64,000 nucleotides of DNA from a virus. The position numbers and the translations under genes are program-made. How positions within the stretch are numbered: position 1 is the stretch's first letter; each line of letters opens with the position of its first letter. A model generated the notes under the pieces. The model ran no database searches, was not told the origin of the DNA, and was given only the letters and a program-made list of their open reading frames with translations. This document shows positions 34,084-64,000 of this stretch, piece after piece. Location of the stretch: the IMG/VR virus record IMGVR_UViG_3300025425_000009, positions 11,658 through 75,657 of that record. The stretch is one strand, 5' to 3'.

Positions 34084-34231
34084 AACGTACTTTGTTTAAG
34101 TGAATAATAACACCCATGATTGATTATAACAAACATGAGTGAGATTGACAACAGATGCACAATAGAGGAGCGGTAAGAAAACAAACAAACAACCACTCCT
34201 CTGCTCTGCACCCGTTGCAGGTGCTCCTGTT

Positions 34232-44159: not shown

Positions 44160-44240
44160 AAAAAAAGGCGACCCCGCATTAGTGTTTGCGGAGAAGCCCT
44201 CATTTAAGCGGTCACCACTTTTAATATGTTAATTATAACA
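44160..44240 (-). promoter_or_regulatory. TGTTATAAT promoter, conserved 20-nt leader motif and terminator-like hairpin
   Basis: motif is 18/20 identical to 53150-53169. Confidence 0.65.
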
Positions 44241-46343: not shown

Positions 46344-46393
46344 AATAGTGTGTTTGTTATTATTGTCCTTGTTAATGATTCTATTATAACATA

Positions 46394-53344: not shown

Positions 53345-53402
53345 AATTATAACATAACTGTGCGATGTGCACCTTCTGTGAACTGGTGTGCAATAACGTG
53401 CC

Positions 53403-55553
53403 TTATTGTACACTACTAAGGATTGATGGAGCAAGTACACATCTGCAATTATATTCAGACGGTGCAAGGAGCCCGTTTGTAAATAGTGCATTGACACCTA
53501 CTATCTCTCCACCTACGCCTACCGGTGCATCCCTATGTGCCTGTCTTGTTCTGTCATCATCTGTGTTGATCCATTCCTTGCCTTGCACAATATCTGATTG
53601 CTGGAACTGTGATAGTGCACCTCTGTTGTTTGCATAGGTTGCTTCAGTCCTTGCAATAAGCTGTGCCCTCGACTTGGGTATATCTCCGTATACCTCTTGT
53701 ACCCTTTCCGTTAGTGCACCGATTCCGTCCCCTTGATTGATTCCTTGTGTAAGTGTGCTTGTCAACATTGAGAATGTCGTGTCTGTTACAGACTGTGCAA
53801 AGAATACTGATCTTGCTTCCATCAGTTCAGCCAGCTGAGGTGTCATGTCATATGCCTCACTTGTTAGTGCAGCTGCATCGTCAGCACCTAGTTCAGCGTA
53901 TTCACTAAGGAACGGCAATGCAATTGCTGACCACAGCTTAACCTCCGCTGTCTTGTTTAAGACAGAGTTAACATCACTGTGGTTCAGTTTGTTATGCACT
54001 CCTTTATTATTAGTAGAGTCCAGCTTAGTCAATGCCTTGATCACCCTCTGTTCTTGCAGCGCTGCTTCACGAACAACCTCCTTCTCAAAGATAGCTGCAC
54101 GTTTATCTACACGTTTGTTGACCATATTATAGTAGTCTGTCTTAGATTTACGATCTGGTAGCACAGACACAAGGGATTTATCTAGATTAGTCGGTGTGCT
54201 CTTTTTTTTTCCCTTGGCTGTTGCAATTGCCTTCATCGCCACAGCTACCTCAGATGATGCTGTCTCCAGCAATTCAAATTTGGTTCGTAGGAGTGGTCGG
54301 CCTTGTAGAAGTTTAAGTGCAGTGGACTTTACCCTAGGATCAGTCTTAAAGGTAAGTGATTTAGCAGGATCCACCTCTGTTGCGTCAGCACCTTCAGCTA
54401 TAACGTCGCCACCTTCAATTTCAGGTAGGTCATGTTCAGAACGTATCTCGTTGATAGTTGCCCATTTACCATGTGCTGCAATAGAGTCGGCTCTTAGTGA
54501 TTCACGGTCAGATGGAGTAGGATCATCGTATGTAATAAAGAATTGATCTCCGAAGTCTGGTCGTATTAGGAATTCGTTTAGTACTTCCACCAATTGACTC
54601 ATTTCAGGCACCACTGTTTCAGAAAGGAAGATCATCATACCGGTTTGTGCATTGGCAAAGTTAACGTCATCTGTTGTGATAACTGACTTAGGTACACCGA
54701 GTGCTACAAGAATGTCATCCCTTGTGAACTTCATTGATTCGATGTAATCCATTTCCCTTTGTGATATAGATACCTGTTGGTATTTCATACCTCCTTCCAG
54801 TATACCAATCTTTGATGACTCATCCTTTTTATGCTTCTCGTCCCATGCAGATGTCATCTGTGTACGTTGCTCTGTATCTAGTTGCTGCTCTGTTACTAGG
54901 AGTGCATCAGGTCTTGCGTTGTTATTGAAGAAGTTGCGCTGGAATTCAGATGCAAGTTTCTCTGTCTCTATACGTGTTTTGGATGCAACCAACGGTGACA
55001 TACCTCTGAATGGGTTAAGTGGGTCCGGATCTTTAAAGTGGATCACATCTTCAGGTGCAAATATCTCAACCTTACCGTTTGATTTAGCAAGTTCATAGTG
55101 ACTAACATATGTCACTGGGTCAGATACAACAGTCATAAGGTCAGGTCGGAGGTTCCATAGTTCAATGACTTGGCCTCGAGCGTTACGTGTTTTAAGCCAG
55201 AAAGCCTCTCCTGTTAGCTTCTTGTTGATCCATGCTGTTTTAAGGAACTCTGTCCTTGTCTGGAACGGGTTGATCTTAACAAGGAGGTCAAGAATCTCAT
55301 GATTCAGCACCTCTTCTGCGTCACCTGCTTTGTTCTTAATTTTGTATAGGCGTAAGTCAACAGCTGCAACCTTAGTTGCAACCTTGTTGACAGCTGCATA
55401 AATGTAGAGTGATTTACCGTACTGCTCCATTTGGTTGTTAACATTCCAACTCGAAGAAGTAATACCAGCAAAGATGTGAGACAGCTCATCAATAATCACT
55501 GATTTTTCTGAGGTGCCTCCGGAGTTAAATAGTTTTTTGTAGTTGAATTTCAT
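53403..55553 (-). CDS. Portal protein fused to a MuF (minor head) domain
   Basis: HK97 portal motifs (GEAF, IHFK, GMSPL, LGVP) followed by IARTE, KEW..DDRTR..H, NCRC. Confidence 0.88.
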   Translation of the reverse strand: MKFNYKKLFNSGGTSEKSVIIDELSHIFAGITSSSWNVNNQMEQYGKSLYIYAAVNKVATKVAAVDLRLYKIKNKAGDAEEVLNHEILDLLVKINPFQTRTEFLKTAWINKKLTGEAFWLKTRNARGQVIELWNLRPDLMTVVSDPVTYVSHYELAKSNGKVEIFAPEDVIHFKDPDPLNPFRGMSPLVASKTRIETEKLASEFQRNFFNNNARPDALLVTEQQLDTEQRTQMTSAWDEKHKKDESSKIGILEGGMKYQQVSISQREMDYIESMKFTRDDILVALGVPKSVITTDDVNFANAQTGMMIFLSETVVPEMSQLVEVLNEFLIRPDFGDQFFITYDDPTPSDRESLRADSIAAHGKWATINEIRSEHDLPEIEGGDVIAEGADATEVDPAKSLTFKTDPRVKSTALKLLQGRPLLRTKFELLETASSEVAVAMKAIATAKGKKKSTPTNLDKSLVSVLPDRKSKTDYYNMVNKRVDKRAAIFEKEVVREAALQEQRVIKALTKLDSTNNKGVHNKLNHSDVNSVLNKTAEVKLWSAIALPFLSEYAELGADDAAALTSEAYDMTPQLAELMEARSVFFAQSVTDTTFSMLTSTLTQGINQGDGIGALTERVQEVYGDIPKSRAQLIARTEATYANNRGALSQFQQSDIVQGKEWINTDDDRTRQAHRDAPVGVGGEIVGVNALFTNGLLAPSEYNCRCVLAPSILSSVQ

Positions 55554-55729
55554 TAGGCAATTGTTTTCCACAGAGTTAGTGATAATAGGCCGAGAATGAT
55601 CAGTTTGATTGAAATAATGATCGGGAGTAAGCAAACACCTATAATTACAAGGCCTGTGCCTCCTAAGTTCAGCATGTTTGCAAGTATCTCAACTGTATTT
55701 GTTTTAAGTGTATTGATGAGTGCTTTCAT
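55553..55729 (-). CDS. 58-aa two-TM protein (absent from the ORF track)
   Basis: TAATG coupling to the portal gene; TGTTATAAT upstream. Confidence 0.55.
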   Translation of the reverse strand: MKALINTLKTNTVEILANMLNLGGTGLVIIGVCLLPIIISIKLIILGLLSLTLWKTIA

Positions 55730-55762
55730 ATATTGATAATTATAACATCAAGTAGGTAACGA

Positions 55763-56040
55763 TGTATGAGTGTAGCATTCTTAGGACATTTGCCGACATT
55801 GACACATGCTGTAGATGTGGTCAGTTGGTGGAGTATAGCGTTCTCCATACATTATCCACCTATCCTATAATAGGTAAATGTATAGCATTATATGAGTATA
55901 GCGCTCTGCATACATATTCCACATACATCTCACATATAAATGTATTGCAATGTATGAGTATTGACTCTGCTGGACATGGAGTACATTCCGTCAGCATAGC
56001 AGTGGTGGCTCAATGTATGAGTGGTGCACTCCCTATACAA
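55763..56040. repeat. five degenerate ~27-bp dyad repeats with 62-63-bp period
   Basis: core GAGT at 55768, 55831, 55894, 55956 and 56019. Confidence 0.72.
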
Positions 56041-57394
56041 ATGTCAACTTAGCATGCGGTATATACGTGAACGCCATCCTCATGATTAGACAATCAAGAA
56101 TATCCGGTGATCTACCAAGTGCGGCTTTCATATTGTCCTTTGATACAATGGCATTCTTTCCGTCCTTGTCAATGTCCTTAGCCTTCAGCTGTTCAAGCTC
56201 CGCAATAAGTCCTGCCCTCATATCACCACTGTCTATTTCAACTCGCATTGCTTTGGTGTTGACCTGTTTAGCCAGAGCGTATGCACATTGTGATTTAAGG
56301 TTTGTATAGTTCTCTGATCCGTTGGCTCTAGTGTTTGCCACGAACCCCTTGATACCATAGAGTGAATCCTTCACACCTCCTCCAATTCCGTCCTCATCGA
56401 CAATCACCCTTGATGAAGGTATCGAATACTGTGTCATGAATTGACGGAGAAGACCAACTGTGGTAGGAATTGATGTCTTAGCATATGAATGCACTCCTAC
56501 ACACACCCATTCCTTCCATATTGTTATTACAGTCCTGTCGGCCCCGAATCGGGCTACATCGCATGATATATAGAACTTAGGGTCTGGTCTAGAAGGGTCT
56601 TCAATGTCCTGCTCAAGTTGATTAGTAAATAGATCTGTTAGCGAGTCGAAGTCCATGAGTGCTGAGGGGTCATCATCATATTCCCAGTTACCTTTCAACA
56701 GACGTTCTCGTGATACCTTGTCAAGGGTGTTCAGTGTCTTAATGTATTCCTTAGACAAGAATGGGTTGTCACTAACCTTTGCAATGATGAACTTCTTGAT
56801 GTCAGGCAGTGTGCCATCTCTGTCTGCCTTGTAGAACTCGCCATATAAAAAGTTCTTTGTAGGGTTACATGTCATTAGCATCTTGGGTATCAGTCCGAAT
56901 TGATCCAGCTTATACCGGAGTCTGGACTTGACAACGTTCTTACATTTTTCACGTATCTGACTTGCCTCATCAATAAATGCACCTGTATACTCCGTTGATC
57001 CTAGTGCATCATACTCTGGGTCAGAAGGGTAATGGGCGAGATCTTTTAGATATATGTCTGATCCAGTCTGCGGAAACGATATCACTCCTTCCTGTGCGTT
57101 ATATACATAGTCCTGTCCTTTTTCTAGTCCCCACATCTTGCAAACATCAAAGAAGGTGAGGAGTGTAGACTGCTTCAATTGCTTTAGAACAGCTCGTCCC
57201 ATAAGCCATCTTGACCCTGGAAACGTATGGCAATTGATAATGAGCCATGCACATCCAAGAAATGATTTTGCACCGCCAGCAGCACCTCCATAAAGAAGCT
57301 CAGTTGTTTCTTCGTCGTTGAGGTAGTAAAAAGCTAATTGCTGTTTGTCAGTAGCTTGCCATTTGATTGTTCTTTCGGTGTTAGTCTGATTCAT
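56033..57394 (-). CDS. terL: terminase large subunit
   Basis: YGGAAGGAKS, FIDEA, TCNP, CDVARFG.D, SPDILD. Confidence 0.93.
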   Translation of the reverse strand: MNQTNTERTIKWQATDKQQLAFYYLNDEETTELLYGGAAGGAKSFLGCAWLIINCHTFPGSRWLMGRAVLKQLKQSTLLTFFDVCKMWGLEKGQDYVYNAQEGVISFPQTGSDIYLKDLAHYPSDPEYDALGSTEYTGAFIDEASQIREKCKNVVKSRLRYKLDQFGLIPKMLMTCNPTKNFLYGEFYKADRDGTLPDIKKFIIAKVSDNPFLSKEYIKTLNTLDKVSRERLLKGNWEYDDDPSALMDFDSLTDLFTNQLEQDIEDPSRPDPKFYISCDVARFGADRTVITIWKEWVCVGVHSYAKTSIPTTVGLLRQFMTQYSIPSSRVIVDEDGIGGGVKDSLYGIKGFVANTRANGSENYTNLKSQCAYALAKQVNTKAMRVEIDSGDMRAGLIAELEQLKAKDIDKDGKNAIVSKDNMKAALGRSPDILDCLIMRMAFTYIPHAKLTFV

Positions 57395-57869
57395 CTGTTT
57401 CTATATCGGTTACATTAACAGGCATGATTTCAATACGTGCAACGGGATTTATAATCTCCACATTATGGTTTGTTGTTATACGGTCTTTTAGTTTATTGTA
57501 TTCACGGATGGCGCCAAGTTTTGCGTTGAAATCAGATGATTGGTCTATAAGGAATAGGAGCTGCTTGTCTACGTGGGTGTCATTTAAACCGGCAGACTGG
57601 AGTAATGCGTTCAGCCTGTTTGTTATTTCCTTTTTGTTAAGTAGTGTGCCTGTCCTACTCTTGGCTCGCCTATACTCGTGGGGGTCTGAGATGTCTATGT
57701 CAAAAGCAGCGGAGTAGGATTGTACGCCGTTTCCAAAAAACTCAGTGGGTGATGTGTAGTACTGGCAGAACATTTCTTCTTGCAGGTTGATGTCATACTT
57801 CTTTAGTATATCCATTGGTTGCATGGTCCGTTTGCCTGAAGGAGTCTTGTTGTTTAGCGGTATTTGCAT
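57381..57869 (-). CDS. terS: terminase small subunit
   Basis: FCQYY..GNGVQSY HTH-like region; upstream of terL. Confidence 0.75.
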   Translation of the reverse strand: MQIPLNNKTPSGKRTMQPMDILKKYDINLQEEMFCQYYTSPTEFFGNGVQSYSAAFDIDISDPHEYRRAKSRTGTLLNKKEITNRLNALLQSAGLNDTHVDKQLLFLIDQSSDFNAKLGAIREYNKLKDRITTNHNVEIINPVARIEIMPVNVTDIETDESD

Positions 57870-58220
57870 AAAATGTTTGTTTTGTTAGTCATACATCAAT
57901 TATAACAACAAACGAGCGTTACGCGTAAAGCTGACTTGTAGGGATGCGGATCGGTTGCACTTTGGTTATATAGGGTTTGTTTCTTGACCTATAGCCAGTA
58001 AAGGTCTAGAGTATATGAGGTGGACCAGGATGCGCCCATCTCAGAGTGTTTCTGCATAGGGGCGTCGTAAGGCAGATTTCACTAGATCAAGCTGTTCTAT
58101 GGCTGTGTGTGAGGCTGTGCTACTACTTTTGAGCACTATTTAGGTATACTAAGGCATAGAAAAACACACCCCTTCACTAGAGTGTGTTAATCCTGATATA
58201 AGCTTTACAGAAAGGAGATG

Positions 58221-63623: not shown

Positions 63624-64000
63624 CTTATACATGAATAATCTACAAGAGCTTAAAAACGAAATCCAGAAGGCAGTACCAGAGATACCAGAGATACTGGAGT
63701 TAAAGGAGGGTTGTCTTCTCTGGAATACTTACCAGACCCCAGATATAGGATGTGGATATAATTTTGTTAGGCAACAAGGAGAAAGTATGTTAGTTCGTAC
63801 CCCACAGCATTGGAAAAAGAGAGGTGGACAGATGGTATCGGTTGACGCTAAAAAATCAAACGGAGATTATGTGTTTATAACTCTCGGAAGACCTATAACC
63901 CTCGAAGATGTGATGGTGATGATGGATAAGGTCTTAAAAGAATACGCTTGGGAATATCTAATAAGTCCAGAGGGGGTATTTTGGAGGGACTGGGGAGAGG

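What the first reader, a model, noticed from the sequence alone, without database searches (positions are those of the whole stretch)
55763..56040. Cryptic 63-bp-period array between terL and the portal promoter
Seen: five copies of a ~27-nt self-complementary unit (consensus about TGTATGAGTATAGCGCTCTGCATACAT) at offsets of 63, 63, 62 and 63 bp. They are separated by ~36-nt different spacers, several of which have their own dyads. The geometry is CRISPR-like, but the repeats are degenerate and no cas or Nop-domain gene is in the window. 63 bp equals six helical turns. Inference: either phased protein-binding sites (pac/TerS or a late activator) or a processed small-RNA/guide array.
Basis: partly seen in the sequence, partly recalled or inferred. 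Interest (0 to 1): 0.7.

Follow-up and report, generated by a model that had tools for sequence, protein, structure and literature searches.

The report
Phased 63-bp repeats beside phage promoter
Five decayed 63-bp repeats fill a 283-bp gap between the DNA-packaging gene and the portal-operon promoter of one uncultured salt-lake phage; the repeats are real and private to this phage, are neither a CRISPR array nor a gene, and are most likely a row of docking sites for a DNA-binding protein, which is unproven.

Summary
Five units start at 55762, 55825, 55888, 55950 and 56013 (offsets 63, 63, 62, 63). Each opens with a 28-bp core, consensus ATGTATGAGTATAGCGCTCTGCATACAT, found nowhere else in the 75.7-kb genome.

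Three details need correction:
- The self-complementarity is limited to the outer 4-7 bp.
- The "spacers" are decayed parts of a whole-unit tandem duplication; the U2 and U3 spacers are still alike.
- Spacer dyads are no more frequent than chance.

The array is a lineage-specific insertion. In four relatives (59-69% TerL identity) the terL stop is followed within 0-25 nt by the same TGnTATAAT promoter-like box, the small membrane ORF and portal.

Most alternatives tested negative. The cores are 54-75% alike. Hairpins are weak. There was no Rfam hit, no Cas6, ParB or ToxN gene, and no matching repeat in three public collections. The 96-aa plus-strand ORF has poor codon usage and no homologue.

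Best reading (about 0.4): phased, same-face protein-binding sites upstream of the promoter at 55747, with U1 centred near -43. Rivals are a neutral decaying minisatellite, a transcribed RNA array and a pac site.

No close relative carries the array, so function rests on inference. Interest is modest.

The parts
55762..56040 (.). Whole array: four full 62-63-bp units plus a fifth core, filling the gap between the terL stop and the promoter box.
55762..55789 (.). U1 core (ATGTATGAGTGTAGCATTCTTAGGACAT). Its centre lies about 43 bp upstream of the inferred start point of the 55747 promoter.
   Evidence: position read
55825..55852 (.). U2 core (TTGGTGGAGTATAGCGTTCTCCATACAT).
55888..55915 (.). U3 core, closest to the consensus (TTATATGAGTATAGCGCTCTGCATACAT).
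55950..55977 (.). U4 core (ATGTATGAGTATTGACTCTGCTGGACAT), reached after the one 62-bp step.
56013..56040 (.). U5 core only (ATGTATGAGTGGTGCACTCCCTATACAA). Its right arm is formed by the last terL codons and the stop.
55739..55747 (-). TGTTATAAT promoter-like box, one of ten in the genome, all on the coding strand. It lies 9 nt before the ATG of the small ORF.
   Evidence: the same box sits at the same junction in relatives
55553..55729 (-). 58-aa hydrophobic ORF, conserved in relatives (39-42% identity). Its stop overlaps the portal ATG (TAATG).
53403..55553 (-). Portal-MuF fusion gene. The likely start is the ATG at 55553, not the TTG at 55634.
   Evidence: Phage_portal 4e-66, Phage_Mu_F 1e-15; start inferred by comparison with L002 and L083
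56033..57394 (-). Large terminase subunit (terL). It ends KLTFV*, as its homologues do.

Best explanation
The array is a row of five binding sites on double-stranded DNA for one sequence-specific protein, probably a dimer or higher oligomer, phage- or host-encoded.

Each site has ATGTAT-type arms two helical turns apart, with an asymmetric conserved GAGT next to the left arm. The sites repeat every six helical turns, so all lie on the same face of the helix. The promoter-proximal site is centred about 43 bp upstream of the start point of the TGTTATAAT promoter that drives the small membrane ORF and portal.

A bound protein array would activate, repress or insulate this late promoter. For example, it could block read-through from terS-terL, or wrap the upstream DNA.

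Shown: the repeat geometry, the phasing, the better conservation of the cores, the position next to the promoter box, and the fact that the array is an insertion.
Inferred: that a protein binds, which protein it is, and the effect on transcription.
For: 1. Sequence is kept, not pairing. The invariant columns are T2, G7-A8-G9-T10, G14 and A25-C26-A27. Where the right arm changes (GGACAT in U1 and U4) the left arm does not compensate. Hairpins are not better than shuffles.
2. Cores are better kept than spacers. Mean column conservation is 3.89 of 5 for cores and 2.66 for spacers, against a null of 2.52. Pairwise z is 2-7.4 for cores and -0.3 to 2.7 for spacers, apart from U2-U3.
3. Spacing stayed at 63, 63, 62, 63 bp although most spacers are near saturation.
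4. Eight ATGTAT/ATACAT hexamers occur against 0.24 expected. They are phased with a best period of 10.4-10.5 bp, R = 0.72. Extra hexamers sit 10 bp upstream of the U3 and U4 cores.
5. The array lies directly upstream of a TGTTATAAT box, a 9-mer present ten times in the genome and always on the coding strand. The box is conserved at this junction in relatives.
6. Non-DNA readings tested negative.

Comparable architectures are known. Each phi29 p4 site is an inverted repeat split by 15 bp (PMC1904284, PMC3100819). F sopC is 12 direct 43-bp repeats, each with a 16-bp inverted repeat (PMC3177203).
Against: - No binding protein was identified. Pfam and PHROG scans of 39 ORFs, mostly small ones, found no HTH, RHH or zinc-finger regulator.
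- The other nine TGTTATAAT boxes have no such array, and the core occurs nowhere else.
- Four relatives run the same promoter and operon without any array, so it is dispensable for the basic late programme.
- For the youngest pair (U2/U3) core and spacer have diverged about equally, as neutral decay would give.
- The phasing statistic is not independent of the 63-bp period.
- No relative carries the array, so purifying selection cannot be measured across genomes.
Confidence: 0.4

Rival explanations
1. A functionless, decaying minisatellite. A 63-bp segment was duplicated in tandem by slippage or unequal recombination after this lineage split from its relatives. It is now drifting apart, and the apparent core is the slower-decaying or partly homogenised part.
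For: The array is absent from all four relatives with the same gene order. Spacers share ancestry, and core and spacer of U2-U3 are about equally diverged. No partner gene, RNA family or homologous array was found anywhere.
Against: In 9 of 10 unit pairs the core is clearly better kept than the spacer. Only one 1-bp length change occurred despite near-saturated spacers. 283 non-coding bp have persisted in a compact genome, and were identical in contigs of four further runs (two possibly the assembly's own source samples) from studies of 2010, 2017 and 2019. The array abuts the terL stop and the promoter box without disturbing either.
Confidence: 0.2
2. A transcribed repeat-RNA array. It would be read through from terS-terL (minus strand) or transcribed antisense, then act as a decoy, sponge or processed small RNAs. 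Models are CRISPR mini-arrays or RNA anti-CRISPRs, or a phage mimic of a type III antitoxin.
For: No terminator is predicted between terL and the array, so it is probably transcribed as a 3' extension of the terL message. A small GAG...CUC hairpin can be drawn in every unit on the plus strand. The 28 + 35 geometry resembles a CRISPR array. Phages do carry repeat RNAs against defence systems (PMC10651486, PMC3475682).
Against: Cores are only 54-75% identical. Hairpins are weak and not better than shuffles, both for the whole region (z -0.3 to -0.5) and per core. There was no Rfam hit at E <= 5. The genome has no Cas6 and no ToxN, although the ToxN control genomes were also silent. The best-kept 22-mer is absent from viral, metagenome and 185,579-species genome collections. 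The U2 and U3 spacers are homologous.
Confidence: 0.12
3. A packaging recognition (pac) site. The small terminase subunit would bind the phased repeats, and the first headful cut would be made nearby.
For: The record closes on itself (143-bp end overlap with one mismatch), as expected for a circularly permuted, headful-packaged genome. TerL is of the Terminase_3/PBSX type. The array is adjacent to the terminase genes. From my own knowledge, known pac regions (SPP1, P1) are 100-300 bp with repeated short boxes.
Against: Relatives with the same terS-terL-portal order have no sequence at all at this position, and an essential site is not expected to be a private insertion. From my own knowledge, pac sites usually lie within or before terS. 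No read-start data were available, because all runs are held as contigs.
Confidence: 0.1
4. A small plus-strand gene (55762-56052, 96 aa) with three 21-aa repeats (YE[CY]SxL[RH]T motif), divergent from the portal operon.
For: The frame is open over the whole array. Units U1-U3 are in one frame, since 63 bp equals 21 codons. The Leu codon in the motif varies synonymously (CTT, CTC, CTG). A weak promoter-like site lies upstream.
Against: The codon-usage score is -0.12, below every 96-codon in-frame window of the phage's own genes (mean 0.39, sd 0.12). The 62-bp step changes the frame, so U4 and U5 would encode unrelated sequence. There was no Pfam or PHROG hit. No homologue was found among 5.8 billion clustered or 1.84 billion representative proteins, and the ORF itself is not in the collection, so it was presumably not called as a gene. 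An open frame across a repeat that lacks stops is not surprising.
Confidence: 0.05
5. Iterons of a replication origin, or a partition centromere of the sopC type.
For: The layout is tandem direct repeats each with inverted arms, as in sopC (PMC3177203). Sequences close to a DnaA box follow the U2 and U3 cores (TTATCCACC and TATTCCACA; read). An AT-rich stretch lies beside U1.
Against: The genome has no ParB_N domain, and that search worked in the control genomes. No initiator gene is adjacent. An 8-of-9 DnaA-box match in 300 bp is expected by chance about 6-10% of the time (my estimate). The element is absent from relatives.
Confidence: 0.05

Closest known systems
phi29 p4 sites in the A2c/A2b-A3 early/late switch region
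   Same: Each site is an inverted repeat whose arms are about two helical turns apart (5'-AACTTTTT-15 bp-AAAATGTT-3', about 31 bp; PMC1904284). Several sites upstream of a late promoter build a multi-protein DNA complex (PMC3100819). Here the arms are ATGTAT-N16-ATACAT (28 bp), there are five sites, and the nearest is centred near -43.
   Different: No p4-like protein was identified. The period is a regular 63 bp. The left arm carries an extra asymmetric GAGT. The host is probably a member of Bacteroidota. No function has been tested.
F-plasmid centromere sopC
   Same: Tandem direct repeats (12 x 43 bp), each carrying an inverted-repeat binding motif for one protein (PMC3177203).
   Different: The sopC units are nearly identical and are bound by the ParB-family protein SopB. 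This phage has no ParB_N domain, its units are 54-75% alike, and the period is 63 bp.
CRISPR arrays, phage mini-arrays and RNA anti-CRISPRs (Racr)
   Same: A repeat of about 28 nt plus a spacer of about 35 nt, with partial dyad symmetry in the repeat, carried in a phage genome (PMC10651486).
   Different: The repeats are degenerate and the spacers are related by descent. The hairpins are weak. There is no cas gene, and no host or viral array with this repeat was found. Genuine phage-borne arrays picked up by my pattern scan (L225, L226) have near-identical repeats.
Type III antitoxin arrays (ToxI) and the phage pseudo-ToxI mimic
   Same: A non-coding tandem direct repeat in a phage that could act as RNA (PMC3475682).
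   Different: From my own knowledge, ToxI-type units are about 36 nt and nearly identical. No ToxN-like gene is present, and no processing-site pattern is shared by all units.
Iterons of phage and plasmid origins (for example lambda ori; from my own knowledge)
   Same: Four to five directly repeated sites with internal dyad symmetry next to an AT-rich stretch.
   Different: Iterons are usually 17-22 bp at a period of about 22 bp, within or beside the initiator gene. Here the period is 63 bp, the array sits between late genes, and there is no initiator nearby.

Membership tests
CRISPR array | Near-identical direct repeats (typically >90% identity apart from the terminal repeat) | tested here: not met
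   Pairwise core identity is 54-75%. Tandem Repeats Finder reports only 2.1 copies at 78%.
CRISPR array | Spacers unrelated to one another (acquired separately) | tested here: not met
   The U2 and U3 spacers are homologous (z = 5.0), and several other pairs have z of 2-2.7.
CRISPR array | cas genes nearby, or a host array with the same repeat | tested here: not met
   No Cas6 in the whole 75.7-kb genome. No cas domain among the 39 ORFs scanned. The 22-mer of the best cores is absent from viral, metagenome and genome collections. Only exact matches were searched.
RNA anti-CRISPR (Racr) | The repeat mimics the CRISPR repeat of the host in sequence and hairpin | tested here: inconclusive
   The host is unknown. 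No exact 22-mer match was found in 185,579 species genomes. Hairpins are weak. A diverged mimic cannot be excluded.
sopC-type partition centromere | Tandem direct repeats each holding an inverted-repeat protein site | tested here: met
   Five units with ATGTAT(G)/(C)ATACAT arms, although the units are degenerate.
sopC-type partition centromere | A cognate ParB/SopB and ParA encoded by the same replicon | tested here: not met
   No ParB_N domain in the genome, and the controls responded. No ParA was seen in the ORFs scanned.
Type III antitoxin array (ToxI-like) | Near-identical tandem repeats next to a ToxN/AbiQ-type endoribonuclease gene, or mimicry of such a host array | tested here: not met
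   The units are degenerate. No ToxN match was found, but the control genomes were also silent, so the gene test alone is weak.
Protein-coding 21-aa repeat gene | An open frame with the genome's codon usage, and homologues | tested here: not met
   The frame is open, but the codon score is -0.12 against 0.39 +/- 0.12 for real genes. The 62-bp unit shifts the frame. No homologue was found and no family.
Phased activator/repressor site array at a promoter | Repeated sequence-conserved sites at integral helical turns, adjacent to a promoter | tested here: met
   Period 63 bp, equal to 6.0 turns. Hexamer phasing is best at 10.4-10.5 bp. U1 lies about 43 bp upstream of the inferred start of the TGTTATAAT box at 55747.
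Phased activator/repressor site array at a promoter | A protein that binds the sites and changes transcription | not testable with these tools
   No regulator domain was found in the ORFs scanned. Testing needs EMSA or footprinting and reporter assays.
pac site | TerS binding and the first packaging cut at or near the site | not testable with these tools
   All public runs are held as contigs, so no read starts are available. Absence from relatives argues against it.

The most novel reading that the evidence does not exclude
The array is a cas-independent repeat-RNA locus evolved by the phage. It would be transcribed as the tail of the terS-terL message and cut into units of about 63 nt. The conserved ACUCAUACAU/GAG...CUC element of each unit would then titrate a host RNA-binding defence nuclease or a regulatory RNA. 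That would be a new kind of RNA decoy in a Bacteroidota-type phage already rich in RNA-repair and RNA-mimic genes.
Probability: 0.06. Interest if true: 0.7.

Novelty: new member of a known kind. Interest (0 to 1): 0.3.

Why it matters
If the array is a phased protein-docking platform, it shows how a phage lineage can add a new regulatory layer to an otherwise conserved late operon (terL, promoter, small membrane ORF, portal) by amplifying a 63-bp segment. It would also give a handle on the unknown late-transcription machinery that reads the TGTTATAAT boxes of this hydroxymethylcytosine-type phage, whose host is probably a member of Bacteroidota. The practical value is small. The element is private to one uncultured phage, has no homologues, and has no identifiable partner protein.

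Tried and rejected
**Searches for a homologous array**
- blastn of the region against 50,697 phage records: no match.
- Exact and degenerate core patterns in viral, genome and metagenome collections: no match.
- A three-unit TATGAGT pattern in viral contigs: 67 loci, all unrelated tandem repeats or genuine CRISPR arrays.
- DNA search in the records of relatives G001-G003: nothing.
- Hexamer clusters in 1.17 Mb of related loci: at most 4, against 8 here.
- Earlier scan notes by sequence and by relatives: nothing relevant.

**Relatives**
- TerL or portal relatives in viral, metagenome and genome collections reach at most 69% identity in fetchable DNA. None has the array.
- Closer relatives exist only as proteins: P0002 at 73%, and P0001 identical on 7 contigs.

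**Sequencing runs**
- No RNA holder is listed.
- Contigs of four runs were identical to the window, so they gave no polymorphism and no read starts.

**Other readings tested**
- Rfam at E <= 5: nothing.
- Terminator scan: none.
- Duplication of the promoter, the ORF start or the terL 3' end as the source of the unit: no significant similarity.
- DnaA-box reading: only one 8-of-9 and one 7-of-9 match, within chance.
- Bacteroidota -7 box (TAnnTTTG) reading of TACATTTA in the spacers: not consistent across units.
- Invertible-promoter reading: no alternative junctions in the contigs.

Full report
**Setting**

The window is bases 11658-75657 of a 75,657-bp IMG/VR virus record. The same sequence occurs in salt-lake metagenome runs of several studies.

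All genes around the finding lie on the minus strand:
- a weak terS candidate, 57381-57869
- terL, 56033-57394 (Terminase_3)
- a 303-bp gap
- a 58-aa hydrophobic ORF, 55553-55729
- a portal-MuF fusion, then the prohead protease and major capsid genes

The phage genes have no Shine-Dalgarno sequences. The nearest cultured and prophage TerL relatives are from Bacteroidota, so the host is probably a member of that phylum.

**The observation**

Five units start at 55762, 55825, 55888, 55950 and 56013, with offsets 63, 63, 62 and 63. Each opens with a 28-bp core whose consensus is ATGTATGAGTATAGCGCTCTGCATACAT.

No other place in the genome matches the core at 8 or fewer substitutions. ATGTATG occurs 23 times in the genome, 6 of them here. 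The hexamer ATGTAT/ATACAT occurs 8 times in 296 bp against 0.24 expected. A profile built from U1-U4 finds U5 as the best remaining hit in the 64-kb window, exactly one period further on. Only its core matches; the terL coding end behind it is not part of the unit. The array is therefore real and far from chance.

- Self-complementarity is confined to the outer arms, with 4-9 of 14 position pairs complementary. As RNA the cores fold at -2.8 to -7.1 kcal/mol on the plus strand and 0 to -6.7 on the minus strand, no better than shuffles. The whole region has z of -0.3 to -0.5.
- The spacers are not independent. The U2 and U3 spacers align with z = 5.0 and other pairs keep traces. Tandem Repeats Finder reads 55831-55961 as a plain 62-bp tandem repeat. 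The array arose by duplication of whole units.
- Short dyads inside the spacers are no more frequent than in shuffles.

**It is an insertion private to this lineage**

Only four relatives that share the terL, small ORF, portal order could be fetched: L002, L003, L004 and L083, at 59-69% TerL identity.

- In three of them the terL stop is followed within 0-25 nt by a TGnTATAAT box, 7-9 nt later by the ATG of the homologous small membrane ORF, and then by portal.
- L003 has a different 117-aa ORF there and no gap.

In the window the same box (TGTTATAAT, 55747-55739, minus strand) sits 9 nt before the small ORF. That leaves about 283 bp of array between it and the terL stop.

TGTTATAAT occurs ten times in the genome, always on the coding strand of its neighbourhood. 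This remains a consensus argument, not a mapped start.

Closer relatives exist only as protein records (73% identity, and identical copies on seven contigs). Contigs of four further runs (two of them possibly the assembly's own source samples; studies of 2010, 2017 and 2019) are identical to the window wherever they cover the array.

**What it is not**

*CRISPR-like array.* Core identity is 54-75%, the spacers share ancestry and the hairpins are weak. No Cas6 is present in the genome. The best-kept 22-mer is absent from IMG/VR, JGI metagenomes and 185,579 species genomes. Genuine phage-borne arrays that my looser pattern picked up by accident (L225, L226) show what real ones look like: near-identical repeats.

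*Known RNA family.* None at E <= 5.

*Type III antitoxin mimic.* The units are far too unlike each other. No ToxN was found, although that search had no positive control.

*Partition centromere.* The layout resembles sopC (PMC3177203), but there is no ParB_N domain.

*Coding repeat.* A 96-aa plus-strand ORF (55762-56052) does span the array, and 63 bp equals 21 codons. Against it:
- Its codon score (-0.12) lies below every in-frame 96-codon window of the phage's genes (0.39 +/- 0.12).
- The 62-bp step shifts the frame.
- It has no Pfam or PHROG family.
- It has no homologue among 5.8 billion clustered or 1.84 billion representative proteins, and the collection does not hold the ORF itself.

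*Duplicated flank.* The unit is not a copy of the promoter, the ORF start or the terL end.

**What it most likely is**

The pattern is one of conserved sequence at fixed spacing. The invariant positions are T2, GAGT at 7-10, G14 and ACA at 25-27. Where the right arm has changed, in U1 and U4, the left arm has not compensated. Cores are better kept than spacers in nine of ten unit pairs. Unit length changed by only one base while most spacers drifted to near-random.

The two arms of a core are 21-22 bp apart. Extra ATGTAT hexamers lie 10 bp upstream of the U3 and U4 cores. Units repeat every 63 bp. All these distances are whole numbers of helical turns, and the hexamer positions fit a period of 10.4-10.5 bp best (R = 0.72, n = 8). 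That statistic is partly a restatement of the 63-bp period.

Taking the start point as 7 nt after the TATAAT, U1 is centred near -43, and the others follow at six-turn steps on the same face.

This is the architecture of a multi-site docking platform for a dimeric or oligomeric DNA-binding protein upstream of a promoter. The closest described case I can name is the set of p4 sites of phi29, whose arms are split by 15 bp and which, together with p6, fold the early/late switch region (PMC1904284, PMC3100819).

I put this reading at about 0.4. The weaknesses are plain:
- No regulator was found among the 39 ORFs scanned.
- No other TGTTATAAT box has such sites.
- Relatives manage without the array.
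- The youngest unit pair shows no excess conservation of the core.

**Rivals**

- *Neutral decaying minisatellite (0.2).* This explains the absence from relatives and the shared ancestry of the spacers. It does not explain the kept cores and spacing.
- *Transcribed RNA array (0.12).* No terminator separates it from terL, so it is probably transcribed. Nothing else supports an RNA function.
- *pac site (0.1).* The record's ends overlap by 143 bp with one mismatch. The assembly is therefore circular, which fits headful packaging. An essential site should not be a private insertion, however, and read starts were not available.
- *Plus-strand gene (0.05), and origin or centromere (0.05).* See the tests above.

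**Novelty and interest**

The element is a new, orphan example of a familiar kind of feature: a phased repeat array in a phage control region. Its 28-bp core at a 63-bp period is an uncommon geometry. It has no homologues, no partner and no conservation that would allow a stronger claim, so interest is modest (0.3).

The most novel reading still open is a cas-independent repeat-RNA decoy. I put it at about 0.06.

I used an earlier scan note on this genome for the TGTTATAAT lead and checked it myself.

Noticed in passing
G000 record ends (window 63858-64000 and L163:1-143): The first 143 bases of the record repeat its last 143 with one mismatch. The 'linear' record is therefore a closed (circular or permuted) assembly of about 75,514 bp. 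The ORF that is open at the window's 3' end is simply cut by the arbitrary record end.
   Followed up: partly
window 55739-55747, 57899-57907, 53346-53354, 46383-46391, 44232-44240, 34123-34131 (minus); 29989, 31020, 32879 (plus): TGTTATAAT occurs ten times in the genome, always on the local coding strand and with no -35-like element. It looks like a phage-specific promoter class. It differs from the Bacteroidota sigma-A consensus, although the host is probably a member of Bacteroidota. In several cases the ATG follows within 5-9 nt, which implies leaderless messages.
   Followed up: partly
window 55553-55729 (minus); L002:4074-4250, L004:4346-4540, L083:2850-3028: A conserved hydrophobic ORF of 58-64 aa sits between terL and portal in this phage group. 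It is probably translated from a (near-)leaderless message, and its stop overlaps the portal ATG (TAATG). No family is assigned.
   Followed up: partly
window 53403-55634 (minus): The mechanical ORF for the portal-MuF fusion starts at a TTG at 55634, inside the small ORF. Comparison with L002 and L083 places the real start at the ATG at 55553 (MKFNYKKLF...).
   Followed up: partly
window-wide gene starts: No Shine-Dalgarno motifs lie upstream of 34 genes; A-rich ACTAA-like sequences are common instead. Together with TerL relatives in Flavobacterium, Cellulophaga and Bacteroides phages and Bacteroidota prophages, this points to a Bacteroidota host in the salt lake.
   Followed up: partly
window 57890-57896 (minus): A single ATGTATG half-site lies just downstream of the TATAAT of the terS promoter box (TGTTATAATTGATGTATGACT). 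It may be chance, since the genome holds 17 copies outside the array.
   Followed up: no
L225:39-2900 (206-kb IMG/VR contig) and L226:3940-4129: My TATGAGT pattern scan picked up, by accident, genuine CRISPR-type arrays with near-identical repeats at a period of 65-67 bp in a huge-phage contig and in a 59.6-kb viral contig.
   Followed up: no
L163:249-1343: Two adjacent early ORFs (174 and 188 aa) carry sub-threshold matches to the DnaJ CXXCXGXG zinc-finger motif. One also has a faint match to Gabija anti-defence Gad1.
   Followed up: no
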